Origin: Shigella phage vB_SboM_Phaginator
Reading direction: 5' to 3' (one strand)
Length of the DNA stretch: 64,000 nt
Sequence record: OL615012
The notes under the pieces were generated by a model. It was not told the DNA's origin. It ran no database searches and saw only the letters and a program-made list of their open reading frames with translations. This document shows positions 15,688 to 28,739 of the stretch, one piece after another (the first letter of the stretch is position 1; each line of letters starts with the position of its first letter). The position numbers and the translations under genes are program-made.

Positions 15688-16652
15688 TGTATTCTTTAGA
15701 GGAATTTAATAATCAAGCAATAAACGCAGATTTCCAACGTAATAATATGTTTAGCTGCGTTTTCGCAACAACTCCATCAACTAAAAGCTCTTCGTTGATA
15801 AGTTCAATTAGCAACTTTTCTTATAATAACTTGGGTCTAAATTCAGATTGGTTAGGATTAACTCAAGGTGATATTAATCAGGGAATTACTACGCTAATTA
15901 CAGCTGGCACACAAAAACTGATAAGAAAATCAGGGGTTAGTAAATATCTTATTGGTGCCATGAGTCAACGTACAGTTCAAAGTTTATTAGGCTCATTTAC
16001 AGTTGGTACATATTTAATTGACTTCTTTAACATGGCATATAACTCATCTGGATTGATGATATATTCTGTAAAAATGCCAGAGAATAGATTATCCTATGAA
16101 ACTGACTGGAACTATAATTCTCCTAATATTCGTATAACCGGAAGAGAATTAGACCCTTTGGTTATTTCATTTAGAATGGATTCAGAAGCTTGTAACTATC
16201 GTGCAATGCAAGACTGGGTTAACTCTGTTCAAGACCCAGTAACTGGATTACGTGCTTTGCCACAAGATGTCGAGGCAGATATTCAGGTTAATCTTCATGC
16301 TCGTAATGGATTACCTCATACTGCGGTGATGTTCACCGGATGCATTCCAATATCAGTGAGCGCTCCTGAGTTATCATATGATGGAGATAACCAAATAACT
16401 ACATTTGATGTTACTTTTGCGTATAGAGTCATGCAGGCTGGGTCGGTTGATAGACAAGCTGCGCTTGAGTGGCTTGAATCTGCTGCTATAAATGGCATTC
16501 AAAGTGTTCTCGGAAATAGTGGAGGTGTTACTGGATTATCTAATTCGCTTTCACGACTTAGTAGATTAGGAGGAACTGCTGGAAGCATTTCAAACATTAA
16601 TACTATGACGGGAATTGTCAACTCGCAAAGTAAAATATTAGGAGCAATATAA
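15687..16652 (+). CDS. 54: Baseplate tail-tube initiator gp54
   Basis: 321 aa; TAATG overlap with 48; hairpin terminator follows. Confidence 0.9.
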   Translation: MYSLEEFNNQAINADFQRNNMFSCVFATTPSTKSSSLISSISNFSYNNLGLNSDWLGLTQGDINQGITTLITAGTQKLIRKSGVSKYLIGAMSQRTVQSLLGSFTVGTYLIDFFNMAYNSSGLMIYSVKMPENRLSYETDWNYNSPNIRITGRELDPLVISFRMDSEACNYRAMQDWVNSVQDPVTGLRALPQDVEADIQVNLHARNGLPHTAVMFTGCIPISVSAPELSYDGDNQITTFDVTFAYRVMQAGSVDRQAALEWLESAAINGIQSVLGNSGGVTGLSNSLSRLSRLGGTAGSISNINTMTGIVNSQSKILGAI

Positions 16653-16656
16653 CAAT

Positions 16657-16688
16657 GGGGACCGAAAGGTCCCCATATTTTTTATTTA
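16657..16688. terminator. Intrinsic terminator after gene 54
   Basis: Hairpin ggggacc-gaaa-ggtcccc followed by atattttttattt. Confidence 0.6.
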
Positions 16689-16972
16689 CGGAATGAAATA
16701 AAAGCAGCAACTGAAGCAACTAAACTGTCTTCAATATAAACTTCAATTTTTACCGGAGCTTCTGATTCAAATTTACCTGTTACTACACCCTGAAAAATAC
16801 TTTCAGTCTGTTCTGGCTTTGAAAAATTTTCAGAAGGAAAAATTCCGAACTTTTTATCTGTTCCAAAAATTTTGATAAATTCATCGTAAACTGCTTCATT
16901 AAAAGCATTATCAGCAGGAATAACGCCTTCAACTACAAGTTCTTGACCTAAAAAGCGCAAAGAAGATTTCAT
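16682..16972 (-). CDS. Hypothetical protein (alt.-3-like position)
   Basis: 96-aa ORF with its own early-type promoter and SD GAGGA. Confidence 0.6.
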   Translation of the reverse strand: MKSSLRFLGQELVVEGVIPADNAFNEAVYDEFIKIFGTDKKFGIFPSENFSKPEQTESIFQGVVTGKFESEAPVKIEVYIEDSLVASVAAFISFRK

Positions 16973-17003
16973 TTTGTGTTCCTCATGTTATGTCAGTAAG
17001 ATT

Positions 17004-17033
17004 ACTATAACACAACACGAGGGACTTGTAAAC
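17004..17033 (-). promoter_or_regulatory. Early (sigma-70-type) promoter upstream of the 96-aa ORF
   Basis: Minus strand reads GTTTAC, 18-nt spacer, TATAGT; near-identical to the element upstream of alc. Confidence 0.5.
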
Positions 17034-19090
17034 TACATTTTGAACTTTTTAGACATTCCGTTAATGTTAACCAAAGAAGCTAAGATTTGAGAAACTTCGT
17101 TTTCCTCTTCTTTTGATTCTTCTACAAGGAATTGATTAAATCCAGTCATTGGACGAACTTCACCAGTTTCCATCAAATGGTCGCCATCATATACTGATTC
17201 CTCTAATTGTTCAGAAGGAGGAACGATTGTACCTTCGATTAGATACTTGTTATAAGCAGTTTCTTTCATAAAGTACGTACTTACTTTATTAATCTTCAGT
17301 AAAATTCCACGTGGTAGAATAACTTCAGCTTCTGATGGAAATCCTGATAAATGACCTGGAACGATAACTTTGATTCGCTCAGCTCCTTTAATTACCATAC
17401 CCACGCTAGTTTCAGCATCTTCATTAGCATATGTAGAATGACTACCCATATGCATCAAATCTTCTGCATCAACGGAACCTTCTCCTTCACCAGAAAATAC
17501 TGCGCCGGAATCATCTAGAGCCATATAGTTTTTACCATGCTCACCGAAGATATTTGGTTTAAGCGATGTGGATACGAAGTTCTTGAAATAGAACATTTTG
17601 TTTTCAATGTTATGACGCAAAGTTTTAAAGGTAACTTCTTGACCACGGTAAAGTGTAGTTCCTGGAGGAAGAACTGAACCTTTAGCGAATGCAGAATCAA
17701 GCGTCTCAATATGTTTAATAGCTCGTTCCATATATTCTTCACGGGTAGAATCTGGTTTACCCAAAAGGAACGAGTTCATTTCAACATATGAATCTGCGCA
17801 ATAATCTTCAATTACATCAGATTCAGCTTGAGTTAATCCTTTTGGAGTTACTTCGGTGCTCGCGTATTCATATGCCTGAGCGGCAGATTCATTAATCAAT
17901 TTATAAATGCCATTCATGACAAATTGAATAATAGCTGTCTTTTCATCTGGTGTAGCTTTAGAACCTTTAACTAAATCATTGATAATTTTCTTAATAACAT
18001 CAAAGCTATTAGAAATATTAATGTCAGCAAGATCGCTTAAAATTTTATCAGTTTTATAATCAAAGAATTCTTTATTCTTTAAATATTCTTGAGAACCTTG
18101 ATATGTTATATCGCTCTGCAACTTGATAGATGGATCACGTAAACGCGCATGGGCTAATGCAATATGATTTCGGAAACTTTCTAGTTCATAATCATTAGAT
18201 TTAAAACGAGAAGCACTTCTCATACCACCGATAGCTCCTTTGCTGAAGTTTGAACCAATCTGAATAACGCCAGAGTTCATTGGTCCTTCTGCTTTATATA
18301 CCGGAACTTTAGATTCAAACTCTTGATATTTCTTAGCAGCGAAGCTATCACCCTGAAGTGAAGCATCAACAGTAGAATATTGAGCTTGTGCTGCTAATCG
18401 ACGACTAATTTTAGTTTTCTGAATAACAGCTTGATCAGTGCGCTTATCATTTTCTAAAGCAATAGAAGCAGCAACAGCAACAGCTTTAGGAACAGCATTT
18501 CCTGTTTTAACGTCTACATAAACATCACCAACCTTTGATTCAACTTTTGTGAATAACTCAGTTGAAATAGGAGGTATACCTGGAATGTCTTCTAAATTGG
18601 CATTTTTACGGTAAACCATAATATATGCATATTTCTTATCATAGTCCCAGATTTCCTTTAAAAGAACATACCGACCTGCTCCTTTAGTACGTACTAAACG
18701 GTCAGCAATAACTTGCATTTGACGGGCTGCGCCATTTGTTTTACTTTTTAGTACGCGGAATAGGCATGCATCAATTTTATACTGTTTCATTGTTTGAAGA
18801 GCAGTATCAAAAACAGCATTAATGACGCCAATTGGATTTCCACCCAAGTTTTTAAGCTTGACTAACGATAATTTCTCGTTGACACCTATCATTACGATAT
18901 GCATCATTTTGTCGCCCGGCTTAACGTTTTTATTCGTATCGCCGCCAGAGGTGTATGTACAAAATCTAAATCCAGGAAGCACGCTTTCTTCGCCGACTTG
19001 GATAGCAAAAATTTGTGGTATTTTATGCTTAGGATTTAAGTTAACAACCGGCGCCGAAGCGCCGTCAAATAATTCTGTAATAAGTTCCAT
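17033..19090 (-). CDS. Alt-like ADP-ribosyltransferase, paralog 2
   Basis: 685 aa; N-terminal ~235 aa nearly identical to the adjacent Alt; C-terminus retains the R, STS and ExE ART motifs (TLYRGQ, FVSTSL, SEAEVILPRG). Confidence 0.85.
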   Translation of the reverse strand: MELITELFDGASAPVVNLNPKHKIPQIFAIQVGEESVLPGFRFCTYTSGGDTNKNVKPGDKMMHIVMIGVNEKLSLVKLKNLGGNPIGVINAVFDTALQTMKQYKIDACLFRVLKSKTNGAARQMQVIADRLVRTKGAGRYVLLKEIWDYDKKYAYIMVYRKNANLEDIPGIPPISTELFTKVESKVGDVYVDVKTGNAVPKAVAVAASIALENDKRTDQAVIQKTKISRRLAAQAQYSTVDASLQGDSFAAKKYQEFESKVPVYKAEGPMNSGVIQIGSNFSKGAIGGMRSASRFKSNDYELESFRNHIALAHARLRDPSIKLQSDITYQGSQEYLKNKEFFDYKTDKILSDLADINISNSFDVIKKIINDLVKGSKATPDEKTAIIQFVMNGIYKLINESAAQAYEYASTEVTPKGLTQAESDVIEDYCADSYVEMNSFLLGKPDSTREEYMERAIKHIETLDSAFAKGSVLPPGTTLYRGQEVTFKTLRHNIENKMFYFKNFVSTSLKPNIFGEHGKNYMALDDSGAVFSGEGEGSVDAEDLMHMGSHSTYANEDAETSVGMVIKGAERIKVIVPGHLSGFPSEAEVILPRGILLKINKVSTYFMKETAYNKYLIEGTIVPPSEQLEESVYDGDHLMETGEVRPMTGFNQFLVEESKEEENEVSQILASLVNINGMSKKFKM

Positions 19091-19093
19091 GAT

Positions 19094-21187
19094 TTATCCT
19101 TGAACGAACTTGTAAGGCATGTTTGTAATATCTATGCAAGACGCAATAATTCCAAGAGATGATTCTACTTTCTGTTTAACATTTGATGAAACAAATGATG
19201 CAAAGTCAACTCTGTCTTCTATTTCAATATCATCTGTCATTGCAACTACTTCGCCGGTTTCCATTAAATGGTCTCCGTCATAGATTACCGATTCGGTGAG
19301 TTCTTCTGTGGTCATAACTTCAGCTTGAATGAGTTTTGTATTATTAGATGTTGTTCCGTCATTATTAGAAGCATCAGTTATTTTATTAACTTTGACCATC
19401 AATCCGCGCGGTAGAATAACTTCAGCTTCTGTTGCTATTCCGAGACTTCCTGGATATACAACATTAACTTTATGAGCTCCATCAATTGCCCATCCTATTT
19501 GAACTTTAACGTATTCAGGATTTTCTTTATACGCTCTTATTTCGCTTGGATTAATAGTTATTCCTTCTTCATTTTTATCAACTGTCAATTCATTACGAGC
19601 TTCTGGTTCTAAAAGACCAATACCAGCATGTGTAATTCCAAAACGTCCAAAAATGATAGGAGTTAAAGAAGTAGATACAAAATTTCTGAAATAGAACACT
19701 TTATTTTTAACTAGTGCTTCGTATATAGGAGCAGTCATACTTTGAGCACGATAAACTGTGATGCCTTCCGGTATGCGGTCACCATTTTCAAAAGCTGAAT
19801 CTAAGTTATTTATAGCAGATTCAATTTCTTTTTCACTCATTACATCATATCGTTCTGGATTGTAACGACCTAAAAGAAGATTATTGATGTCAGTATATCC
19901 TGAACCGCAATATTCTCTAATGCCACGCTTTTGTGATGGAGTATATTTAGAACCATCACGGGCAATAGTAATATCAATCATTGGACCAGCACCAATTCCA
20001 GAAAAACTGTAAATCATTCGTTTGAGGAATTTAGTTTTTGCTGCGTTCCAGGAATTTTTAGTTATTTCTTCCCAGACTTCATCTGGTTGTCCTTTACGAG
20101 TTTTATTATGTTTATCAAGCCAATTATCTTTATATTCTTCAAAGAATTTATTAACAGCTGCTGCGTATTTCTCTAAACATTTTATTGAAGTAGTTGGTTC
20201 ATTTTTGATTGCGTTAAAAATTACATCTTTAATTTTTTCTGAAACTTCATCAACCTCACTTTTTGAAAAGAATTTATAGTCATAGTGAAGTTCATTCGCA
20301 GTTCCTTCGGCAATAATTTTTGCTGCCTTAGTTTTAGAAGCTAATGAATTAATTCCAAGCTTCATTTCTTCTGCTTCGGGAATTAAAGGAGCGGTAGCAG
20401 GTTTATTGAAATTAGCTGCGGTAGATTCATACTTCTGGAATAATTCACTTTCAAATCTAGAAGATTCCAATGATTGACTTTGTGCAATTGCTCTACGGGA
20501 AATTTTAACTTTAACGATTACCGCTTGGTCAGAACGTTTATCATTTTCTTGCGCAATAGATGCTGCAATTGCCTCATTTTTAGTTACTTGGGCTCCAGTA
20601 TCTTTATTGATATAAACATCACCGACCTTTGATTCAACTTTAGTAAATAGCTCGGTACTAATTTCCGGAACTCCTGGAATGTCTTCTAGTGATACATTTT
20701 TGCGATGTATAAGAATATATGCATACTTTTTATCGTAATCCCAGAGTTCCTTAAGAAGGACGTATCTGCCACCTGAACGACTACGGATAAGTCTATCAGC
20801 AATAACTTGAATTTGTCGAGCTTGGCCAGCAGTTTTAGACTTAAGAATACGAAGCATACAAGCATCAATTTTATATTGACGCATAGTTTGCATTGCAACA
20901 GTAAAAACTGAATTGATATAATTAATTGGGCTTGGACCAAGACCTTTTAATTTAGCAATTGAACCTTTAGCAGTTAATGTAAAAGGAACAATATGCATCA
21001 TTTTATCGCCCATCTTTAAATCGCGATTAGTATCACCTCCAGATGTATAGGTACATAAACGAAAGCCTGGTTGTTCAATTGCATCATCAACATGAACTGA
21101 AAAAATTTGTGGTATTTTCTTCTTTGGATTTAAGTTTGTAATCGGAAGAGTAGTATCTTCGTCAAATAATTCTGTAATAAGTTCCAT
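19094..21187 (-). CDS. alt: Alt ADP-ribosyltransferase (head-packaged)
   Basis: 697 aa, MELITELFDEDTTLPITNL…; ART motifs TVYRAQ, FVSTSL, TEAEVILPRG. Confidence 0.9.
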   Translation of the reverse strand: MELITELFDEDTTLPITNLNPKKKIPQIFSVHVDDAIEQPGFRLCTYTSGGDTNRDLKMGDKMMHIVPFTLTAKGSIAKLKGLGPSPINYINSVFTVAMQTMRQYKIDACMLRILKSKTAGQARQIQVIADRLIRSRSGGRYVLLKELWDYDKKYAYILIHRKNVSLEDIPGVPEISTELFTKVESKVGDVYINKDTGAQVTKNEAIAASIAQENDKRSDQAVIVKVKISRRAIAQSQSLESSRFESELFQKYESTAANFNKPATAPLIPEAEEMKLGINSLASKTKAAKIIAEGTANELHYDYKFFSKSEVDEVSEKIKDVIFNAIKNEPTTSIKCLEKYAAAVNKFFEEYKDNWLDKHNKTRKGQPDEVWEEITKNSWNAAKTKFLKRMIYSFSGIGAGPMIDITIARDGSKYTPSQKRGIREYCGSGYTDINNLLLGRYNPERYDVMSEKEIESAINNLDSAFENGDRIPEGITVYRAQSMTAPIYEALVKNKVFYFRNFVSTSLTPIIFGRFGITHAGIGLLEPEARNELTVDKNEEGITINPSEIRAYKENPEYVKVQIGWAIDGAHKVNVVYPGSLGIATEAEVILPRGLMVKVNKITDASNNDGTTSNNTKLIQAEVMTTEELTESVIYDGDHLMETGEVVAMTDDIEIEDRVDFASFVSSNVKQKVESSLGIIASCIDITNMPYKFVQG

Positions 21188-21239
21188 TATAGCCTCTCTA
21201 GTGTTTATTCTATTTATAAAATTAAAGGCCCGAAGGCCT

Positions 21240-21428
21240 TTAGTAATCTAGTGGTAAGAGAGTACGATATATTTCAAACTTTGGTCCTTTTTCATAGGCA
21301 TCAAATGTTTCTGTAAATTTATTATAAGCGTATGCATCTACAAATTCGAGAATGACTTGTGATACAGAAGTAGAAACATCTCCACCTTCTTTTTGAGCAA
21401 TGACAATTGTTTCTAAGTAAGCTTTCAT
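21240..21428 (-). CDS. Hypothetical protein
   Basis: 62-aa ORF; ATGA overlap with the stop of gene 30. Confidence 0.55.
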   Translation of the reverse strand: MKAYLETIVIAQKEGGDVSTSVSQVILEFVDAYAYNKFTETFDAYEKGPKFEIYRTLLPLDY

Positions 21429-22888
21429 AAACCAGTTACCTCATGAAAATCGCCAAATACATCTTCAAACGTATTAGCTTTAGTTTTATCTTCACGTAAA
21501 CGAATCGCAATCGGAAGAAATAATTTAACGTAATCAGTGCGGCCATCAGATTTTAACCAACCGTTGCATTCGCACTCTAGAATTTTTCCAATATAATAAT
21601 TTTGGTTTTCCATAATGCGAGTACGGTCAAGTTCATGCGATTTTACACCGGCTTTATCTTTTAAGCCTGAACCAGCATTTACTTTAATTTTTCCACACTC
21701 TGACTCAAGAATAAATCCACCCGCTTTAGTAGGGTCTTTACGGTGAGGATAAATTCCTACAATTTTTAAATCAACATCAATTACTTCTTTAAATTTATAA
21801 AGATTTTTTGAACGAGCATTTTCCCATAATCCATCGATATTTTTGAGAATAATACCTTCAAGACCTTGGTCAATATACTTTTTGTAAATTACCTTAGCTT
21901 CATCTAGGTTATTTACTACTTGGTTTTCAATTAAAATTACTTTATCATAGCCTGATGTCATTTGTTCTAGTTTAGAAAAACGTACATCATACTTTAAACG
22001 AAATGCAGGAAGACCATATATTTCTACTAATGGAACATAGTCCCAGACCTGAAACTTCATGCATTGTGCTTCTTTTTCGGAAATGGTTCCCTTTAAAGAT
22101 TTATTAGCGATTCCATTAGAAGTAGTACGTGATTCAGCTACTTCGGCGAATTCTTTAGCTTTACTAATTTCAGGATAAGCATCAAAAAGAAAATCTAGGC
22201 CTTCTGGCTCCTTTTCAACTTGCTCGTGGTATACCAATTCGCCATCAATTAACACACCTTCTGGATGAATCTGGCGGGCTTCAGCGGTCATTTTGATTAA
22301 CTCTTCCTTAAGAAGATCTAATCCTAGGTATTCATTACCAGCTCGTGATAAAAGACGAACATCATCTAATTCATCACCTCTGACTTCGGCAAAGCACCGA
22401 GCTCCATCAGCCTTTAACTGGGCAAAAGCTGGAAATTTGATATTCTTATTAATGCCTTTTTCATCATAAGAACTTGCCAGCATTTGAGGTTGTTCAGGAA
22501 TTAAACCTGGCCAAACTTTGTTTGCAATAGATATTGAAGCACCGCATTCAAGGTCTCGCATCATCACTCGACGCAAAACTTCAACATCATCCTTTTTACC
22601 ATCGGTGATATATCCAGTCAATTCCTCAATTGCAGCATTTCCGGTCAATTTCCGAGTAGCTAACGTGAATTCAATGAAGTCAAGCATATCGGTAATAGTC
22701 AGCATTCCAAAACTCTGGGTAGCAATACCAGGTTTAGGCCATTTCTTGATATAATACTGCAACCCACGAGAATAAGTCAGACGATATACTCGTTTAAGCA
22801 ATTCATTATCTTTATTCTTTTCAAGAATTGCTTGCTTCTGCTTAGTTGAACCAATAGATGCTATTTCGTTCAGAATTTTAAGAATCAT
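21425..22888 (-). CDS. 30: ATP-dependent DNA ligase gp30
   Basis: 487 aa; adenylation motif KADGAR; matches T4 DNA ligase. Confidence 0.95.
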   Translation of the reverse strand: MILKILNEIASIGSTKQKQAILEKNKDNELLKRVYRLTYSRGLQYYIKKWPKPGIATQSFGMLTITDMLDFIEFTLATRKLTGNAAIEELTGYITDGKKDDVEVLRRVMMRDLECGASISIANKVWPGLIPEQPQMLASSYDEKGINKNIKFPAFAQLKADGARCFAEVRGDELDDVRLLSRAGNEYLGLDLLKEELIKMTAEARQIHPEGVLIDGELVYHEQVEKEPEGLDFLFDAYPEISKAKEFAEVAESRTTSNGIANKSLKGTISEKEAQCMKFQVWDYVPLVEIYGLPAFRLKYDVRFSKLEQMTSGYDKVILIENQVVNNLDEAKVIYKKYIDQGLEGIILKNIDGLWENARSKNLYKFKEVIDVDLKIVGIYPHRKDPTKAGGFILESECGKIKVNAGSGLKDKAGVKSHELDRTRIMENQNYYIGKILECECNGWLKSDGRTDYVKLFLPIAIRLREDKTKANTFEDVFGDFHEVTGL

Positions 22889-23154
22889 TGTTCATCCTTT
22901 AGAGTTTGGTTTACAGCTCTATTATAAATCAATTCATCATTAAGCTCAGGCAAAGACTTATGATATGTAGTTCTAACTTTATTTCCTTGCATCCAGTGCT
23001 TGACGTAAATGAAACCTTGCTCTACACATTTTTTAAAAATTCGTTCGTCTTTTTGAGCTCGGAATTCTGGATTGCATCTAAAAAATTGATTTACGTGACC
23101 GTAATCACGTGTAGTATTACCTTCATTTTCATAAATAGTATGAACAACAAACAT
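22885..23154 (-). CDS. Hypothetical protein (30.1-like)
   Basis: 89-aa ORF with ATGA overlap. Confidence 0.6.
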   Translation of the reverse strand: MFVVHTIYENEGNTTRDYGHVNQFFRCNPEFRAQKDERIFKKCVEQGFIYVKHWMQGNKVRTTYHKSLPELNDELIYNRAVNQTLKDEQ

Positions 23155-24014
23155 TAGAATGCTCCTTGGAAAATATTATCACCACTACCACTAGTAAGTC
23201 TATTAAAATACCCTGCATCGCCAGGCTTAATATAACTCCATGTATGGAATGGATGGAATGGATTCTGATATGAGTGTGTATAATATGGATGATATGGATT
23301 ATAAGGATTAAATCCAGGAGTTCTCCAAGTAGTGTTCCAACGAAAAGAATCGTTTTTAATCATCTTTTCAACTACATCTTTTATAGCTTTTTCACTATCA
23401 AAACTTTCTTTATTTTCCTTCGATGGAAAAAGCTTATTCTCTACATCATTCCATGTATAAACTCGCTGTGCAGTTTTTGGAATACTGTCACGTTCCCCTC
23501 GAGCCATCCAATAAACAGGCACATTTAATATTTCACTCGCGTGATCGCAGTGGTGAGCGAGATCGTCAATATAACAAATTACGTTATATTTCTCTTTTGC
23601 CTTTTTGAACAACTCTTCTTTTGAAGAATCATGACCACACATCAATACTTCTGAGAAGGCACCAGGAAAAAGAGCATTCAAATTAAATTGACGATTCAGC
23701 AGAGCGTCAATAGAATCACCCAATGCTGTAACAGCTACAAAATTATAATCTTCTTTTAATTTGTTAATTACACACAGGGCATCTTTATATGGAGACAAGT
23801 AACGAATAAAATCTGAACGATTGTATTTTTCAATTAACTTGACGCCAAGTTCTTCATCACAATTAAAGAGTTTACCAGGAGAAATAAATTTCTCATCTTG
23901 GATCATTTTTAAAATATGTTCTAACGGAAGATTATATTTTTGGGCAAAATAAGGAAGACCTGATTGCCAGCTTAAACATACACCATCAATATCAGTCAAA
24001 ATAGTAGGCTTCAT
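23154..24014 (-). CDS. HAD-superfamily phosphatase-like protein with Pro/Tyr/His-rich tail (30.2-like)
   Basis: 286 aa; N-terminal ILTDIDGV (HAD motif I) and YIDD; C-terminal NPYNPYHPYYTHSYQNPFHPFHTW. Confidence 0.65.
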   Translation of the reverse strand: MKPTILTDIDGVCLSWQSGLPYFAQKYNLPLEHILKMIQDEKFISPGKLFNCDEELGVKLIEKYNRSDFIRYLSPYKDALCVINKLKEDYNFVAVTALGDSIDALLNRQFNLNALFPGAFSEVLMCGHDSSKEELFKKAKEKYNVICYIDDLAHHCDHASEILNVPVYWMARGERDSIPKTAQRVYTWNDVENKLFPSKENKESFDSEKAIKDVVEKMIKNDSFRWNTTWRTPGFNPYNPYHPYYTHSYQNPFHPFHTWSYIKPGDAGYFNRLTSGSGDNIFQGAF

Positions 24015-24469
24015 AGAGAGTCTCTTAATAGGTTTAACACATCAATAAATTCAGCTTCGGTTAGTATTGTATCATCTTTTGTTAGACCACTAGCCATGCT
24101 GTGCTTCAAAACTTTTCCTTTCGAGGCTTGTAATGCATCACGAAAGCCCTTGTTTTGGATCGCTGTTTCAAAATATGCATTTGTGTATAATTCTTTCCAC
24201 GCCGGGGAGTATCTTGAAAACGGAACTCCGAGCCAGAAGAGGGTCCCACGGTCCTGAGCTCTAGCATAAGACCTTCCAGCTTGTTGGGCGGCAAGCCCGG
24301 ATAACCCAAATACACGACGTTGTTGTTCAACATTTTTCACCTTGCACCCTTGGAGGAATCCTTCAAGACCTCCAAATTGAATACCATCCATAACGAAAGG
24401 CCATTGGGCGAAATTACTTAATGCACATGATGGCCACCTAAAATTGCTTCTAATCTCTAACTCAGACAT
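24011..24469 (-). CDS. NADAR/YbiA-like (DUF1768) protein (30.3-like)
   Basis: Track start is a TTG; trimmed to the ATG at 24469 (MSELEIRSNFRWPSCALSNFAQWPF…GIQFGGLEGFLQ…); NADAR-type motifs recognised by eye. Confidence 0.65.
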   Translation of the reverse strand: MSELEIRSNFRWPSCALSNFAQWPFVMDGIQFGGLEGFLQGCKVKNVEQQRRVFGLSGLAAQQAGRSYARAQDRGTLFWLGVPFSRYSPAWKELYTNAYFETAIQNKGFRDALQASKGKVLKHSMASGLTKDDTILTEAEFIDVLNLLRDSL

Positions 24470-24668
24470 TTTCAATACTTATAATTTCAACATCAGCCCA
24501 ATGACCATAGCAAGGAAGACGAAATTCAACTGGCCAGTTAGGGTCCTTTTCTAATATAACAGACTCAACTCGTGGTTCTTCATGTTCATCAGTATATGGA
24601 TTTTTATCTGTTACTTTATATGTGACCTTAATGTACTGAATTCCAAAAATCTTATTAATTATATTCAT
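24462..24668 (-). CDS. Hypothetical protein (30.4-like)
   Basis: 68-aa ORF in operon. Confidence 0.55.
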   Translation of the reverse strand: MNIINKIFGIQYIKVTYKVTDKNPYTDEHEEPRVESVILEKDPNWPVEFRLPCYGHWADVEIISIENV

Positions 24669-24862
24669 ACTAATTCCTTTAATCCGTAAATAGGAGATAA
24701 TTCATCACCCATACGAAGGTCTTCATTTCCATCTACCCAGGAAACAATATAAGCCTCTTTTATTTGAATACCACTCCATTTAAATGGAGGTAGAACCTTA
24801 GAAATTAATCCAGGTATACCAACTACCTTTAATTCAACAGTTTGACCTAAAAAGAATTTCAT
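24665..24862 (-). CDS. Hypothetical protein (30.5-like)
   Basis: 65-aa ORF with ATGA overlap. Confidence 0.55.
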   Translation of the reverse strand: MKFFLGQTVELKVVGIPGLISKVLPPFKWSGIQIKEAYIVSWVDGNEDLRMGDELSPIYGLKELV

Positions 24863-25149
24863 TAGAACCTCATCTGAAAACCGTGCGATTTAACATTACC
24901 ACCGCCAATATCAGAAATGTTAATTTCACTCGCAATCGAAGGATCGATGTCAATTTCACGATTAAGTTTAGTGATAGCTAAAGTATCACGCCCATTTACT
25001 GTACGGAATTCTAAAGGACAAACCACATCAACGTAATTTTTAATCGATTCACTGGTAGGTTGCAAATGAGCAGGAAGGTCTTTAGGCGCCTTTGAGAAAA
25101 CAACTTCACAGAAATTTTTGCGGGTATCAAAATAAGTAGTCATAAACAT
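24862..25149 (-). CDS. Hypothetical protein (30.6-like)
   Basis: 95-aa ORF; SD GAGGA upstream. Confidence 0.6.
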   Translation of the reverse strand: MFMTTYFDTRKNFCEVVFSKAPKDLPAHLQPTSESIKNYVDVVCPLEFRTVNGRDTLAITKLNREIDIDPSIASEINISDIGGGNVKSHGFQMRF

Positions 25150-25190
25150 AATATTTTCCTCAGTAAGGGGCCGAAGCCCCTCATTTATTT

Positions 25191-25556
25191 TTAAATATCA
25201 AATTCGTTGAGAACTACATCAAAGATTGCTTCAAGATGTTCAGGTTTAGCTCTGTTACTCAGAATATGACGAATCCAAGTTTTAACCAGAAGCTTGCGAT
25301 TAACACCATTCCAGCAAGGATGAGTCCCTAAATCGCGTTGACGAAAATCATCATCCAAAGCGATTTTGAAGTTGGAACCTTCCATTGTGATTGAAACCGT
25401 GATGCCATTTTCAAATCGCATATAAACGTAGTTAGAAGTCATATACTGTTCAATTTCGCATACTGATCCATTTTGATGTTTCCAAAGGCAAATAGTATCA
25501 ATAGAACCTGCAATACCATTAGAAACATATTTACGTTCAAAGTTGATGTAGTTCAT
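25191..25556 (-). CDS. Hypothetical protein (30.7-like)
   Basis: 121-aa ORF. Confidence 0.6.
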   Translation of the reverse strand: MNYINFERKYVSNGIAGSIDTICLWKHQNGSVCEIEQYMTSNYVYMRFENGITVSITMEGSNFKIALDDDFRQRDLGTHPCWNGVNRKLLVKTWIRHILSNRAKPEHLEAIFDVVLNEFDI

Positions 25557-25624
25557 TTTTATTCTCCAAGATGTTTAATTGCGGTACAGGTATATAATAT
25601 CATATCCTGTACCAAAGTAAACAA

Positions 25625-25957
25625 TTATTTTACTACTTTCCAGTGCTTCATGTCAAGTTTACCAACTTTTTTCATCTTCTCAATCAAACGTTCGGCACGT
25701 TGGCGAGCTGTAACATAATACCATTCACCTAATTCATTTTGTTCAATTTTTCCAACGATTACTGTATTCAATTCATAAATCCAACCAGTAAAGAAATTAT
25801 GAACTTGAATTGTAAAAGTGAAATCTGTTCCCATACCTTCTGTTGTTTCTACTTCAATAATATCACCTTCAACTGCCATTAAGAACCACATAGTTTCATC
25901 ATATTTACCATTGAAGCATTTAGTTTTAACTGTAGCGTTCAGATTAATCGTTTTCAT
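25625..25957 (-). CDS. Hypothetical protein (30.8-like)
   Basis: 110-aa ORF with early-type promoter and SD AAGGAGA upstream. Confidence 0.6.
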   Translation of the reverse strand: MKTINLNATVKTKCFNGKYDETMWFLMAVEGDIIEVETTEGMGTDFTFTIQVHNFFTGWIYELNTVIVGKIEQNELGEWYYVTARQRAERLIEKMKKVGKLDMKHWKVVK

Positions 25958-26032
25958 TTTATTCTCCTTTGTTTGTGTAAGATAATACTATCACAAAGGA
26001 GCTATACTGTAAACAACTTTATGCAATCTTTG

Positions 26033-26062
26033 GAAAATAAAAAAGGACTCCCGAAGGAGTCC
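26033..26062 (-). terminator. Intrinsic terminator downstream of the 30.9-like gene
   Basis: Minus strand: hairpin ggactcc-ttcg-ggagtcc followed by TTTTTTATTTT. Confidence 0.65.
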
Positions 26063-26067
26063 TCAAC

Positions 26068-26244
26068 TTATGCTTTCTGCTTACCAAAACGAGAAGCATC
26101 ATCTCGAAGAACCGCACGTGCTCGGCGCATGATCTTCTCAACAGTTTGATTGATACGAGAGTTCGACCCACGCTTGTAGCCAGCGCGTTTAGAATCACCA
26201 ACTTTCTTTTCAACTGCTTTCTTTGCTTTAACTTGTTTTGCCAT
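26068..26244 (-). CDS. Small highly basic protein (30.9-like)
   Basis: Trimmed from the 72-aa track ORF to the internal ATG (MAKQVKAKKAVEKK…), which has a better RBS context; strong terminator downstream. Confidence 0.55.
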   Translation of the reverse strand: MAKQVKAKKAVEKKVGDSKRAGYKRGSNSRINQTVEKIMRRARAVLRDDASRFGKQKA

Positions 26245-26488
26245 TATAAATTCTCTTTTAAATGAAAATGCAGGACTTATTGGCATTGCCTGCGCAAGCC
26301 CTCAAGGGGAACATAGGTTTTTGGATATTTAACGACCAGGATAACCATAAACCCGTCATCATTCACATTCAAGAGGTACACCGTAAAACTGCCGGGGTCT
26401 TAAAACTATAATGATTCGCAAATCATTAATCAGACAGTTCGACGGCTCCTCGATTTAGCTCACACTAAGGCAGTGAATCTCCAATAAA

Positions 26489-26737
26489 TTACTTCAATGT
26501 TACCACAAAGTGACGAACTGCTTTTCGTGCAGCAGAAGCCAGAGGCTTAGCATACTTAAGTTCATCTTTTTCCTGAAGCTCAGCAGCTAATGCAGTTTGA
26601 GCAGGATTCAGATGTTTGAAATAACGCAGGATTTCAAGAGCTTCGGCTTCAACATCAATAGATGCGCCATAGTTTTCGTGACCATTATTCCATGCGTTTC
26701 GTTGCAGTTCAAGAGCGTGTTGTAATTGTTTAATCAT
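26489..26737 (-). CDS. rIII: rIII lysis-inhibition accessory protein
   Basis: 82 aa, MIKQLQHALELQRNAWNNGHENYG…; matches T4 RIII. Confidence 0.9.
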   Translation of the reverse strand: MIKQLQHALELQRNAWNNGHENYGASIDVEAEALEILRYFKHLNPAQTALAAELQEKDELKYAKPLASAARKAVRHFVVTLK

Positions 26738-26885
26738 TTAAAAATTCTCGTTAGAGATTAAAAACTCGGTAGTCACGTTCTTCTGAATTTCATCTTCTTT
26801 CGACAGATCTCTCAGTTGTAGACTACCACATAGAATTGTTCGGTTAACTTATTATTCCGACACCCAATTCATATTATTATTTATA

Positions 26886-27221
26886 TCACTTATAAAGACA
26901 CGGAATAGCTTTATAGTGACAAGTAACGAATTTTTGTTTAATTTCTTTTGGCTGCTTAAGACCCAGAGCTACAAAAGGATGCGGAACATTTCGAATTTGA
27001 CCAACTGGAAGAGAAGTCAAATCACCAACTTCGCAGAAACCTTCAGGAACATCAGGACCAACAGAGTGAACTACACACAGTTCAGGAACTTCACCTTGAA
27101 CACGTTTACCGATAATAAGTCCTGATTCTGTAACTTCTTCATCACCGGCTTGTGCAGGTTCAGAAACTAAAATAACATATTCACCGACAGCACGAATTGG
27201 TAGCTGTTGTACTTCAGACAT
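26886..27221 (-). CDS. 31: gp31 co-chaperonin (GroES analogue)
   Basis: 111 aa, [55 protein letters not shown]…. Confidence 0.95.
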
Positions 27222-27277
27222 CGTTTTTCCTTTTTGTTAACAGATGAATTAATAATAACAAATAATTCTTAAAGCAT

Positions 27278-27586
27278 TTATTTACCAATAAATTGGAGTA
27301 AATGCTCAACTTTCATACCATTAACAGAAATCAATTTGTCAATAGAAAAACCTCGCCATGCACCAAGTTCAACATCAAATACTGGAATCATGTCAGTAGA
27401 TTCTTTCCAAGTAGATTCAGTCAATTTACCAGTTTGCATGGTTGGCATAAAGTCTGCATCACGAGTACCTTTCATAGTACGAATAGTACCATCAGACTTT
27501 TCAAAAACTACGTTTGAAATACCCATGGACAATTTAGTTTTCAAAATTTCACGAATTGCTACTTTCTGCTCAGTTGTCAGTTTCAT
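27278..27586 (-). CDS. Hypothetical protein (31.1-like)
   Basis: 102-aa ORF. Confidence 0.6.
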   Translation of the reverse strand: MKLTTEQKVAIREILKTKLSMGISNVVFEKSDGTIRTMKGTRDADFMPTMQTGKLTESTWKESTDMIPVFDVELGAWRGFSIDKLISVNGMKVEHLLQFIGK

Positions 27587-27823
27587 TTATTTACCTATTA
27601 CAGTTTTAATATGGGTTGTTCCACGTTCTTTAAGAGTGGAAAGCAATTTTTGGCATTTTTCTAAATCAGATTTCCAACTATATGGTCTATCAATACAAAC
27701 CCATTCTGACTTATAATACTGCTTCCATTTAGAGAAAAAATATTTCTTATACTCTACAGCAAATGAAATATTCTCATTAGAATAAGAACTAATTGCTGTG
27801 AGCTGTACCAAACGAAATTTCAT
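27587..27823 (-). CDS. Hypothetical protein (31.2-like)
   Basis: 78-aa ORF. Confidence 0.55.
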   Translation of the reverse strand: MKFRLVQLTAISSYSNENISFAVEYKKYFFSKWKQYYKSEWVCIDRPYSWKSDLEKCQKLLSTLKERGTTHIKTVIGK

Positions 27824-28404
27824 TATTCACCACAGAATTCGTTGATATTTTCCCAGTTTAACTTATTCAAGTTTTTCTTAGGAACATTAAACACTTCAAT
27901 ACCTGCATTTCGCAGAATATCATCCCAACCAGGTTTATTTTTATCGTATGTTTCGCAATAAACCAGCTTTTTAATACCAGATTGAGCTATCGCTTTTGCG
28001 CAATCTGGACAAGGAGAAAGTGTTACATACATAGTAGCACCTTCAATAGAAGAACCATTTCGTGCAGCAAACAAAATTGCATTTAGTTCAGCATGAATTT
28101 CATTTTTAGACGACCATTCAGAGTGAGCGCTACGGTGTTCTTTCGCCAAAACAAAGCGATCAGTTGAACCGAATGATATGCATTCAGGCTTATGGCCTTG
28201 AATGATAGTATGTTTAGGCTTATTCAACAACCAACCTTGCTCAGCAGCATAATCACAACAGTTCACACCTCCTGCGGGTGAACCATTATACCCAGTAGAA
28301 ATAATACGTCCATTCTTTTCAATTACTGCTCCTACCTTCCAGGAGCAACATTTTGATTCTTGTGATACTAAATATGCAATTTGAAGTACTGTACTCGCTT
28401 TCAT
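27823..28404 (-). CDS. cd: dCMP deaminase
   Basis: 193 aa; zinc-dependent deaminase motifs HAELNAI and SPCPDCAKAI. Confidence 0.95.
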   Translation of the reverse strand: MKASTVLQIAYLVSQESKCCSWKVGAVIEKNGRIISTGYNGSPAGGVNCCDYAAEQGWLLNKPKHTIIQGHKPECISFGSTDRFVLAKEHRSAHSEWSSKNEIHAELNAILFAARNGSSIEGATMYVTLSPCPDCAKAIAQSGIKKLVYCETYDKNKPGWDDILRNAGIEVFNVPKKNLNKLNWENINEFCGE

Positions 28405-28739
28405 TTCATAATCACCAGATAAGCAGATTTAGCAGTTTCAACACGATAAATTTCGTGACGAAGTTTAGTTATACTTTTAATAACAGAACTAATTATATTC
28501 TGCCCATCTTTAAAGCGGTTTTTCTTATCAATAAAAACTGCGCCAGTCATCTTTTTGTGAAGCTCAACTGGATACTTCGTCACAATAATAGCATCATACA
28601 CAGAAGGATGAATACTATTCACCAGAGTATCATTCATTAAAGTTATTCTAATGAACTGTGCTGTTTCAGAATCAAGCGCTCTATGATCGCCAGTATCATT
28701 TTCAAGACAATTATCAATTATATCAGTTAAATTCATCAT
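28401..28739 (-). CDS. Hypothetical protein (cd.1-like)
   Basis: 112-aa ORF with ATGA overlap. Confidence 0.6.
   Translation of the reverse strand: MMNLTDIIDNCLENDTGDHRALDSETAQFIRITLMNDTLVNSIHPSVYDAIIVTKYPVELHKKMTGAVFIDKKNRFKDGQNIISSVIKSITKLRHEIYRVETAKSAYLVIMK

What the first reader, a model, noticed from the sequence alone, without database searches (positions are those of the whole stretch)
23154..24469. HAD-like phosphatase and NADAR-like protein immediately downstream of the Alt ARTs and DNA ligase
The 30.2-like ORF has HAD motifs (ILTDIDGV…YIDD) and a Pro/Tyr/His-rich low-complexity tail (NPYNPYHPYYTHSYQNPFHPFHTW). The 30.3-like ORF shows NADAR/YbiA-type motifs (…LSNFAQWPF…GIQFGGLEGFLQ…). 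NADAR domains process ADP-ribose adducts; together with two ARTs a few kb away in the same transcriptional orientation this suggests an ADP-ribose writer/eraser module. The functional link is a hypothesis.
Basis: inference. Interest (0 to 1): 0.5.

Follow-up and report, generated by a model that had tools for sequence, protein, structure and literature searches.

The report
Known anti-DarT NADAR plus HAD phosphatase
These are genes 30.3 and 30.2 of a T4-like phage: 30.3 is the already characterised enzyme AdfN, which strips host-added ADP-ribose from phage DNA, and 30.2 is an uncharacterised nucleotidase-like phosphatase, and neither shows any link to the phage's Alt enzymes.

Summary
Both ORFs exist exactly as described, on the minus strand of a Tequatrovirus (T4-like) window.

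**30.3 (24011-24469)** is 149/152 identical to T4 gp30.3. It has the NADAR/YbiA fold, catalytic E36 and K43, and the phage-type H123. T4 gp30.3 is published as AdfN. It removes ADP-ribose from guanine in DNA and is necessary and sufficient for T-even phages to escape the host DarTG1 defence. This half is already known.

**30.2 (23154-24014)** is a genuine HAD-superfamily protein. All four catalytic motifs are conserved and the model has a helical C1 cap. Its closest relatives are NT5C-type 5'(3')-deoxyribonucleotidases. Its roughly 90-residue Pro/aromatic tail is disordered, built partly from 9-bp repeats, and absent in about 40% of the family. Its substrate is unknown.

**The Alt "writer/eraser module" is not supported.**
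- A terminator hairpin and a late-promoter box separate the 30.x-ligase operon from alt.
- Alt and NADAR do not co-occur preferentially across related phages.
- Published NADAR activity is on nucleobase-linked ADP-ribose.

The conserved partner of 30.2 is DNA ligase, not NADAR or Alt. One lead remains: the AdfN authors suspect an unidentified T-even cofactor, and 30.2 is translationally coupled to adfN.

The parts
24011..24469 (-). Gene 30.3 = adfN: phage-type NADAR, a DNA guanine ADP-ribosylglycohydrolase (152 aa, full length).
   Evidence: PF08010 at E=1.8e-69. It is 149/152 identical to T4 gp30.3. AF2 pLDDT is 94.3. The Foldseek PDB top 3 are the NADAR structures YbiA 2b3w, 8bau and 8bat. 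Function comes from PMC11825919 and PMC11125620.
24362..24364 (-). Codon E36 of AdfN (catalytic Glu).
   Evidence: Invariant in 37 homologues. E36A abolishes T4 AdfN function. The codon was read.
24341..24343 (-). Codon K43 of AdfN (catalytic Lys, phosphate contact).
   Evidence: At least 90% conserved. K43A abolishes function.
24101..24103 (-). Codon H123 of AdfN: the His that replaces the Glu/Asp of other NADAR subfamilies and marks phage NADARs.
   Evidence: Invariant in alignment A2. Described as the phage-NADAR hallmark in PMC11543638 and PMC11125620.
23154..24014 (-). Gene 30.2: HAD-superfamily phosphatase (NT5C-like core) with a disordered C-terminal tail (286 aa).
   Evidence: phrog_420 at E=1.3e-90. 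It is 91% identical to T4 gp30.2. See for motifs, fold and nearest family.
23430..24014 (-). HAD core with helical C1 cap (residues 1-195).
23979..23993 (-). HAD motif I, D8-I-D10-G-V12 (nucleophile Asp and the Asp+2 general acid/base).
   Evidence: D8, D10 and G11 are invariant in A1. D8, D10 and V12 are at least 90% conserved in the 143-sequence alignment A3.
23727..23729 (-). HAD motif II, T96, at the end of strand 91-96.
   Evidence: At least 90% conserved. The strand position comes from the model.
23619..23621 (-). HAD motif III, K132.
   Evidence: Invariant in A1 and at least 90% conserved in A3.
23562..23567 (-). HAD motif IV, D150-D151 (Mg2+ ligands), at the end of strand 145-150.
   Evidence: At least 90% conserved. 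The codons were read.
23157..23429 (-). Variable, disordered Pro/aromatic/His-rich C-terminal tail of gp30.2 (residues 196-286).
   Evidence: pLDDT is below 50 for residues 241-286. Nearly all divergence from T4 lies here. The tail is 25 aa or shorter in 39 of 101 family members. Long tails contain 11.2% Pro and 3.5% Trp, against 4.3% and 1.3% in the core.
23240..23310 (.). Two short 9-bp tandem-repeat arrays (23240-23263 and 23283-23310) that encode HPFHPF and NPYNPYHPY.
   Evidence: Tandem Repeats Finder. They account for the low-complexity sequence and the indels relative to T4.
24011..24014 (-). ATGA overlap: the 30.3 stop and the 30.2 start (translational coupling).
   Evidence: Sequence read.
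22885..23158 (-). Gene 30.1 (DUF3045), with a TAATG overlap to 30.2 and an ATGA overlap to ligase.
21425..22888 (-). Gene 30, ATP-dependent DNA ligase. It is the most conserved neighbour of 30.2.
   Evidence: Ligase lies within 600 nt of the 30.2 homologue in 60 of 71 loci.
21223..21242 (-). Intrinsic-terminator-like hairpin closing the 30.x-ligase-alt.1 unit.
21211..21218 (-). T4 late-promoter consensus TATAAATA, 23 nt upstream of the alt ATG.
   Evidence: The motif count in the window is not above chance, so only its position is informative.
17033..21187 (-). Two full-length Alt-type ADP-ribosyltransferase paralogues (19094-21187 and 17033-19090).
   Evidence: PF03496. They are 70% and 41% identical to T4 Alt.
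25627..25656 (-). Best sigma-70-like promoter match (TTGACA-18-TAAAAT, 11/12), upstream of 30.7. It is a candidate early promoter for the 30.7-to-30 unit.
   Evidence: This is a consensus match only, and the total number of matches is not above the shuffled expectation.

Best explanation
The interval holds two adjacent, translationally coupled early-region genes of a T4-like phage. I find no evidence that they act together.

(1) 30.3 is the orthologue of T4 AdfN. It is a minimal NADAR/YbiA-fold N-glycosidase. It hydrolyses the bond between guanine N2 in DNA and ADP-ribose, using E36, K43 and the phage-specific H123. By erasing the marks that the host DarT1 toxin writes on phage DNA, it lets replication proceed in DarTG1-carrying hosts. 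In effect it is an orphan antitoxin. This mechanism is shown experimentally for the T4 protein, which is 98% identical, and is inferred here by orthology.

(2) 30.2 is a Mg2+-dependent HAD phosphatase. D8 is the nucleophile, D10 the acid/base, and T96, K132 and D150-D151 complete the site. A four-helix C1 cap encloses the active site, which points to a small phosphomonoester substrate. The nearest family is the NT5C 5'(3')-deoxyribonucleotidases, so the most likely substrate is a (deoxy)nucleoside monophosphate. This fits its position among DNA ligase and other DNA-metabolism genes. The tail is a disordered, fast-evolving extension, possibly a docking element. The fold and catalytic residues rest on the sequence analysis and structure prediction done here. 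The substrate and any role for the tail are inferred.

The Alt ARTs are a separate unit, apparently driven by a late promoter. They write ADP-ribose on host proteins and are not the partner of this eraser.
For: - Identity: megablast gives 98% identity to Tequatrovirus genomes, and the gene order matches T4.
- 30.3: 149/152 identical to T4 gp30.3. E36 and H123 are invariant and K43 is at least 90% conserved in 37 homologues.
- 30.3 fold: the family profile hits YbiA 2b3w at E=0.0016. The AF2 model (pLDDT 94.3) finds only the three NADAR structures as confident PDB matches, with TMq 0.69 to YbiA.
- 30.3 function: the literature reports genetics, E36A/K43A mutants and in vitro de-ADP-ribosylation. 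Activity is on G-ADPr, not T-ADPr or C-ADPr.
- 30.2 motifs: all four HAD motifs are conserved.
- 30.2 nearest family: the profile hits mouse cdN 2jao at E=0.022, aligning DGVLxxWxSGL to DGVLADFESGL. Of the top 143 relatives, 38 hit Pfam NT5C. Two of the ten scanned individually, P0340 and P0346, exceed its gathering score.
- 30.2 context: ligase is within 600 nt in 60 of 71 loci. More distant relatives sit among replication and nucleotide-metabolism genes.
- No Alt link.
Against: - The window's gp30.2 matches no Pfam HAD model, not even at E<=1. Placement in NT5C is transitive.
- No biochemical data on gp30.2 were found.
- The ligase adjacency could be inherited synteny rather than a functional link.
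- AdfN works fully only during T-even infection, for unknown reasons. The statement that the two genes act independently is therefore not proven.
Confidence: 0.8

Rival explanations
1. Alt ARTs (writers), NADAR (eraser) and the HAD phosphatase form one ADP-ribose writer/eraser module. The NADAR reverses Alt modifications and the HAD processes the released ADP-ribose products.
For: - The genes lie within about 7 kb on the same strand.
- Both families deal with ADP-ribose.
Against: - A terminator hairpin and a late-promoter box separate the units.
- There is no preferential co-occurrence: the counts are 26/26/7/12.
- NADAR sits at unrelated genome positions in many T4-like phages.
- Published NADAR chemistry is on nucleobase N-glycosidic ADP-ribose, and its biological target is host DarT1.
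- AdfN alone suffices in trans for RB69.
Confidence: 0.04
2. gp30.2 is the unidentified T-even-encoded factor that AdfN needs for full activity, for example by localising or stabilising it, or by clearing a product. The NADAR-nucleotidase pairing would then be functional.
For: - The AdfN authors conclude that an additional T-even protein may be required, because AdfN fails in uninfected E. coli and largely fails with T5 and Bas25. They excluded DNA modification as the cause.
- 30.2 starts inside the 30.3 stop codon (ATGA).
- NADAR is within 100 nt of the 30.2 homologue in 19 of 33 loci.
- In KVP40 the 30.3 homologue overlaps a different, canonical NT5C gene (43.2 bits against a gathering score of 24.8), while KVP40's own 30.2 sits by the ligase. 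This is a second, independent NADAR-NT5C juxtaposition.
- The listed 30.2 matches are large T4-like myoviruses, and no T5-like phage appeared among the 60 records shown.
Against: - In about 60 other NADAR loci the neighbours are diverse and include no HAD.
- Several T4-like phages carry NADAR 55-60 kb away from 30.2.
- 30.2 is linked more tightly to ligase.
- Tail presence does not track NADAR adjacency.
- Most of the roughly 290 T4 genes equally fit the description 'T-even-specific'.
- AdfN acts alone on DNA in vitro.
Confidence: 0.1
3. gp30.2 is a nucleic-acid end-healing 3'-phosphatase that prepares nicks for the adjacent DNA ligase, like the HAD phosphatase domain of T4 polynucleotide kinase.
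For: - Adjacency to ligase is conserved, including loci with reversed gene order.
- There is a weak phrog_415 'polynucleotide kinase' hit at E=0.0027.
Against: - hhalign of the family against the window's own PseT aligns only motif I, with probability 10.6%.
- The model has a closed four-helix C1 cap. From general knowledge of HAD enzymes, which I did not test here, such caps go with small-molecule rather than macromolecular substrates.
- The nearest Pfam family is NT5C.
Confidence: 0.08

Closest known systems
T4 AdfN (gp30.3), phage NADAR subfamily (Pfam PF08010 Phage_30_3)
   Same: It is 98% identical, the same length (152 aa) and at the same genome position. It has E36, K43 and H123, and the C-terminal helix that the inactive RB69 allele lacks.
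   Different: There are three conservative substitutions (V53I, T102A, M125I relative to T4). Nothing else differs.
DarG1 antitoxin NADAR (Geobacter lovleyi 8bat, E. coli C7) of the DarTG1 system
   Same: It has the same fold and the same guanine de-ADP-ribosylation chemistry.
   Different: There is no N-terminal extension and no adjacent DarT toxin. His replaces the catalytic Asp. AdfN cannot substitute for DarG1 in uninfected cells.
E. coli YbiA (2b3w), YbiA-type NADAR
   Same: It is the best structural match (TMq 0.69, E=5.6e-5) and the only sequence-profile match in the PDB.
   Different: Identity is 17%. YbiA has Glu where the phage protein has H123. The papers I read link YbiA-type NADARs to riboflavin metabolism and report that they also remove cytidine-linked ADP-ribose, which T4 NADAR does not.
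NT5C family 5'(3')-deoxyribonucleotidases (Pfam PF06941: human/mouse cdN and mdN, S. epidermidis 3bwv)
   Same: It has the HAD core with a C1 helical cap and a DxDGV...DD motif set. An aromatic residue sits 8 positions after the nucleophile (W16 aligned to Phe in cdN). These structures give the best TM and rmsd, and the highest identity (20%). Relatives of 30.2 cross the NT5C gathering score.
   Different: The window protein itself does not hit PF06941. It carries family-specific invariant residues (R108, N111) and a roughly 90-aa disordered tail. No substrate is known.
T4 polynucleotide kinase/phosphatase (PseT) HAD domain
   Same: It belongs to the same superfamily, has a DxDGT/V motif I, and is encoded in the same phage.
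   Different: Only motif I aligns, with hhalign probability 10.6%. The gp30.2 model carries a four-helix C1 cap, which from general knowledge I expect the PseT phosphatase domain to lack.

Membership tests
NADAR superfamily (YbiA fold) | YbiA-type fold: a helical core flanked by two small sheets. | tested here: met
   The AF2 model has pLDDT 94.3. The Foldseek PDB top 3 are 2b3w, 8bau and 8bat, and no other match has E below 2.
NADAR superfamily (YbiA fold) | Catalytic Glu and Lys in the N-terminal LEGFLQ...K segment. | tested here: met
   E36 is invariant and K43 at least 90% conserved. They align to the YbiA core in the profile hit. Mutants are inactive in T4.
NADAR superfamily (YbiA fold) | Direct match to Pfam PF08719 (NADAR) above its gathering score. 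| tested here: not met
   The window protein hits only PF08010, even at E<=1. The KVP40 orthologue reaches PF08719 at E=0.0022, which is 18.7 bits against a cut-off of 35.1. One homologue has both families precomputed. PF08010 is the family that the literature calls phage NADARs.
Phage NADAR / AdfN subfamily | His in the last strand, replacing the Glu (YbiA type) or Asp (DarG1 type). | tested here: met
   H123 is invariant in 37 sequences. Its role as the hallmark is described.
Phage NADAR / AdfN subfamily | Full-length C-terminal helix (lost in the inactive RB69 allele). | tested here: met
   The protein is 152 aa and ends ...LNLLRDSL, identical to T4. The model has helix 138-151.
Phage NADAR / AdfN subfamily | Guanine-ADP-ribose glycohydrolase activity and DarTG1 counter-defence. 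| not testable with these tools
   This is shown for T4 gp30.3 in PMC11825919, PMC11125620 and PMC12945103. It is inferred here from 98% identity.
HAD superfamily | Motif I DxDx[TV], with nucleophile Asp and Asp+2. | tested here: met
   The motif is D8-I-D10-G-V12. D8, D10 and G11 are invariant in A1, and D8, D10 and V12 are at least 90% conserved in A3.
HAD superfamily | Motifs II (S/T), III (K/R) and IV (DD or GDxxxD). | tested here: met
   These are T96, K132 and D150-D151. They are conserved and sit at the expected strand or helix ends in the model.
HAD superfamily | Rossmannoid HAD core fold. | tested here: met
HAD superfamily | Mg2+-dependent phosphoryl transfer through an aspartyl-phosphate intermediate. 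| not testable with these tools
   This needs an enzyme assay with a D8N control.
NT5C 5'(3')-deoxyribonucleotidase family (PF06941) | Match to the Pfam model above its gathering score (24.8 bits). | tested here: not met
   The window protein has no hit at E<=1. In alignment A1, 6 of 35 members hit at E<=0.1. In A3, 38 of 143 hit at E<=1e-3, with a best E of 4.2e-10, and P0340 and P0346 score 32.3 and 37.3 bits. The relationship is therefore transitive: the protein is NT5C-like, not a demonstrated member.
NT5C 5'(3')-deoxyribonucleotidase family (PF06941) | C1 helical cap with base-stacking aromatics next to motif I. | tested here: inconclusive
   The model has cap helices at 16-26, 32-40, 46-49 and 54-65. 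W16 aligns to the Phe of DGVLADFESGL in cdN. No ligand modelling was possible.
   A terminator and a late-promoter box lie between the units. The co-occurrence counts are 26/26/7/12. NADAR neighbourhoods vary.

The most novel reading that the evidence does not exclude
gp30.2, the NT5C-like HAD phosphatase translationally coupled to adfN, is the unidentified T-even-encoded factor that AdfN needs for full anti-DarTG1 activity in vivo. NADAR-nucleotidase pairs would then be a recurrent two-component counter-defence, also seen as the 30.3-NT5C pair in KVP40.
Probability: 0.1. Interest if true: 0.55.

Novelty: already known. Interest (0 to 1): 0.15.

Why it matters
The NADAR half adds nothing new. 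It is a near-identical copy of T4 AdfN, whose fold, catalytic residues, in vitro activity and role against DarTG1 were published in 2023-2025.

The HAD half refines annotation. T4 gp30.2 is still labelled 'hypothetical protein' in RefSeq. It can now be described as an NT5C-like HAD phosphatase with a disordered, repeat-derived tail, conserved next to DNA ligase in most of the T4-like phage loci examined.

The only point with research value is circumstantial. The AdfN authors left open which T-even protein AdfN needs in vivo. The gene overlapping its stop codon is an obvious, cheap candidate to test.

Tried and rejected
- **Direct family and sequence searches on gp30.2.** Pfam and NCBIfam gave only sub-threshold thiamine-pyrophosphokinase noise. 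phmmer against PDB sequences gave only E~1 hits for both proteins. Family profiles and structure models were needed.
- **Literature on gp30.2.** Searches for 'gp30.2' and for 30.1/30.2/30.3 together with 'bacteriophage T4' found nothing relevant.
- **Domain fusions as functional hints.** One relative (P0254) has an N-terminal 'DNA polymerase' phrog region. The other long relatives have no recognisable extra domain. I judged this too weak to use.
- **PNK-like 3'-phosphatase.** Rejected as the closest relative.
- **General NADAR-HAD neighbourhood association.** Rejected. Apart from the T4-type synteny, only L111 has a HAD close by (about 700 nt upstream), L152 and L153 have a weak broad-HAD hit about 4 kb away, and KVP40 has the separate NT5C pair. 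My iterative HMM became dominated by the 30.2 family, so sensitivity for canonical NT5C in those loci is limited. phmmer with the KVP40 NT5C found none.
- **Tail length versus NADAR adjacency.** No relation was seen.
- **Non-coding features.** Rfam and tRNA scans of the window found nothing.
- **Promoter and terminator counts.** The totals in the scanned region (16500-28500) are not above the shuffled expectation. Only the position of the hairpin and the TATAAATA box before alt is used.
Full report
**What the window is.** The interval 22885-24700 matches 672 phage genomes, the best at 98% identity. All are T4-like Escherichia and Shigella phages. Gene order on the minus strand matches T4. In the direction of transcription it runs cd, 31.2, 31.1, 31, rIII, 30.8, 30.7, 30.6, 30.5, 30.4, 30.3, 30.2, 30.1, 30 (ligase), alt.1, alt. 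In this phage a second full-length alt paralogue follows alt.

**The observation.**
- 30.2 is 23154-24014 (286 aa). 30.3 is 24011-24469 (152 aa from the ATG that T4 uses).
- The quoted peptide motifs are all present.
- The genes are tightly packed. 30.4/30.3 overlap by 8 nt, 30.3/30.2 share ATGA, 30.2/30.1 share TAATG and 30.1/30 share ATGA.
- In the direction of transcription they lie upstream of ligase and alt, not downstream.

**Gene 30.3.**
- It hits Pfam PF08010 (Phage_30_3) at E=1.8e-69, but not PF08719 (NADAR) directly.
- In an alignment of 37 homologues down to 36% identity, E36 and H123 are invariant and K43 is at least 90% conserved.
- The family profile finds E. coli YbiA (2b3w) as its only significant PDB sequence match (E=0.0016), over the segment that carries E36 and K43.
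- An AlphaFold2 model (pLDDT 94.3) retrieves the three solved NADAR structures, and nothing else, with confidence. These are YbiA (TMq 0.69, E=5.6e-5), Phytophthora NADAR 8bau and Geobacter lovleyi DarG1-type NADAR 8bat.
- The protein is 149/152 identical to T4 gp30.3 and has the full C-terminal helix.

**What is published on gp30.3.**
- T4 gp30.3 has been renamed AdfN. Phage crosses mapped DarTG1 resistance to it.
- It is necessary and sufficient for T-even phages to overcome DarTG1. E36A and K43A abolish its function. The purified protein removes ADP-ribose from DarT1-modified DNA.
- The RB69 allele, truncated by 15 residues, is inactive (PMC11825919 and its preprint).
- Independent biochemistry shows that T4 NADAR removes guanosine-linked ADP-ribose. 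It does not remove thymidine-linked (PMC11125620) or cytidine-linked ADP-ribose (PMC12945103).
- The His at the position of H123 is the described hallmark of phage NADARs (PMC11543638).
- This half of the finding is correct and already known.

**Gene 30.2, the fold.**
- No curated model recognises the window protein. PHROGs places it in phrog_420, 'unknown function'.
- In 35 family members down to 34% identity, D8, D10, G11 and K132 are invariant. T96, D150 and D151 are at least 90% conserved. Together these are the four HAD motifs. D8, D10, V12, K132 and D151 stay at least 90% conserved in a 143-sequence alignment that reaches 21% identity.
- The AlphaFold2 model is confident over residues 1-195. 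Each motif sits at its canonical position: the end of strand 4-7, the end of strand 91-96, just before helix 133-142, and the end of strand 145-150. A four-helix cap is inserted after motif I.
- All of the top 50 listed Foldseek PDB hits are HAD-fold structures. The cytosolic and mitochondrial 5'(3')-deoxyribonucleotidases and the S. epidermidis deoxyribonucleotidase-like protein 3bwv give the best TM-scores (0.64-0.70) and rmsd.

**Gene 30.2, the nearest family.**
- The family profile's only near-significant PDB hit is mouse cdN (E=0.022). It aligns DGVLvkWqSGL to DGVLADFESGL.
- An exhaustive profile search finds 1403 cluster representatives at E<=1e-3. Most of the 150 listed are about 190-230 aa.
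- Of the top 143, 38 match Pfam NT5C. Two of the ten scanned individually score above its gathering threshold.
- I therefore call gp30.2 an NT5C-like HAD phosphatase. HAD superfamily membership is met. NT5C family membership is transitive only. The substrate is inferred.
- The window's own PseT phosphatase domain shares only motif I with it.

**The tail.**
- Residues 196-286 are predicted disordered.
- The tail contains two 9-bp tandem-repeat arrays that encode HPFHPF and NPYNPYHPY.
- It holds nearly all of the divergence from T4 gp30.2, where the core is about 98% identical.
- It is 25 aa or shorter in 39 of 101 family members. Long tails are rich in Pro and Trp.
- Many long tails end with a GIEYLxxQPT-like motif. 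T4 has it (GIEYLYNRPT). The window's version is degenerate (DAGYFNRLT). This could be a docking motif, but I could not identify a partner.

**Genomic associations.** I collected 79 viral loci carrying a 30.2 homologue and scanned their neighbours with profiles. The counts below are for the 71 loci with at least 5 kb on both sides.

| Neighbour of the 30.2 homologue | Loci (of 71) |
|---|---|
| DNA ligase present in the flank | 66 |
| DNA ligase within 600 nt | 60 |
| NADAR present in the flank | 33 |
| NADAR within 100 nt | 19 |
| Alt present in the flank | 52 |

- The ligase-adjacent cases include loci with reversed gene order and phages that lack 30.1, NADAR and Alt in the flank.
- The 19 adjacent NADARs are mostly in the T4/RB-type gene order.
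- Alt shows no preference for NADAR-containing loci. The counts are both 26, alt only 26, NADAR only 7 and neither 12.
- Conversely, I collected 80 loci carrying an AdfN-type NADAR. Outside the T4-type synteny the neighbours are diverse and there is no recurrent HAD.
- Several T4-like phages carry NADAR 55-60 kb away from their 30.2-ligase pair.
- The stable partner of 30.2 is therefore ligase and DNA metabolism. NADAR behaves as a mobile accessory gene. These loci are not phylogenetically independent, so the counts are descriptive only.

**Why the Alt module fails.**
- Between alt.1 and alt there is a strong hairpin followed by a T-run (21242-21223). Immediately after it comes TATAAATA, the T4 late-promoter consensus, at 21218-21211, 23 nt upstream of the alt ATG.
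- The T4 record notes that Alt is packaged in the capsid. That fits late expression, whereas 30.x and ligase lie in the early region.
- Together with the lack of co-occurrence and the nucleobase specificity of NADARs, I find no support for a shared writer/eraser module.
- The real 'writer' for this eraser is the host's DarT1.

**A residual lead.**
- The published AdfN paper shows that AdfN fails as an antitoxin in uninfected E. coli and barely rescues T5 or Bas25. It shows that DNA modification is not the reason. It concludes that an additional T-even-encoded protein may be required.
- 30.2 begins inside the adfN stop codon.
- In KVP40 the 30.3 homologue overlaps a different, canonical NT5C gene (43.2 bits), while KVP40's own 30.2 stays next to the ligase.
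- Two independent NADAR-nucleotidase juxtapositions make 30.2 a reasonable but weakly supported candidate. I put it at about 10%, because most NADAR loci lack any HAD neighbour.

**Verdict.** The NADAR is already known in mechanistic detail. The HAD is a modest annotation gain. The proposed functional link to Alt is not supported.

Noticed in passing
window 17033-19090 and 19094-21187: This phage has two intact Alt-type ART paralogues, 70% and 41% identical to T4 Alt. T4 keeps only remnants of the second copy, annotated as alt.-1 and alt.-2.
   Followed up: partly
window 24106-24333 (minus strand, +1 frame inside 30.3): This is the T4-annotated internal ORF 30.3' (75 codons). The frame stays open for 75 codons in 12 of 13 close relatives. 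The ATG is replaced by ATT, ATC or ACG in 8 of them, and the peptide changes non-conservatively. It is probably not a conserved coding gene.
   Followed up: partly
homologues of window 24011-24469 (P0104-P0107, P0113-P0118, P0121, P0147, P0194; locus L012): Many natural 30.3 alleles are truncated (83-126 aa). Some are fused to parts of 30.7, 30.8 or PF11097 proteins, for example in phages SV76, vB_Eco_NR1, UGJNEcP4 and RPN226. This suggests recurrent loss of AdfN, like the inactive RB69 allele, and predicts DarTG1 sensitivity.
   Followed up: no
L163 (Vibrio phage KVP40) 15040-15994: The KVP40 30.3 (NADAR) gene overlaps by 23 nt a canonical NT5C deoxyribonucleotidase gene (KVP40.0071; PF06941, 43.2 bits). 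That gene is distinct from KVP40's own 30.2, which lies next to the ligase.
   Followed up: partly
window 23157-23230 (C-terminus of gp30.2) versus T4 (L080 6475-7311): Many gp30.2 tails carry a GIEYLxxQPT-like motif near the C-terminus. T4 has GIEYLYNRPT. In this window it is degenerate (DAGYFNRLT), while the terminal DNIFQGAF is kept. It may be a short docking motif with an unknown partner.
   Followed up: partly
PMC11125620, methods (no window coordinates): The paper lists its T4 NADAR construct as 'gp30.3; residues 1-208'. T4 and this window encode 152 aa, and an upstream stop rules out a longer ORF here. The discrepancy is unexplained. It could reflect tags or a different phage protein.
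   Followed up: no
window 21240-21428: The alt.1 homologue matches Pfam PF24647 'Phage blade protein' (E=1.9e-29). It is the last gene before the terminator hairpin of the ligase unit.
   Followed up: no
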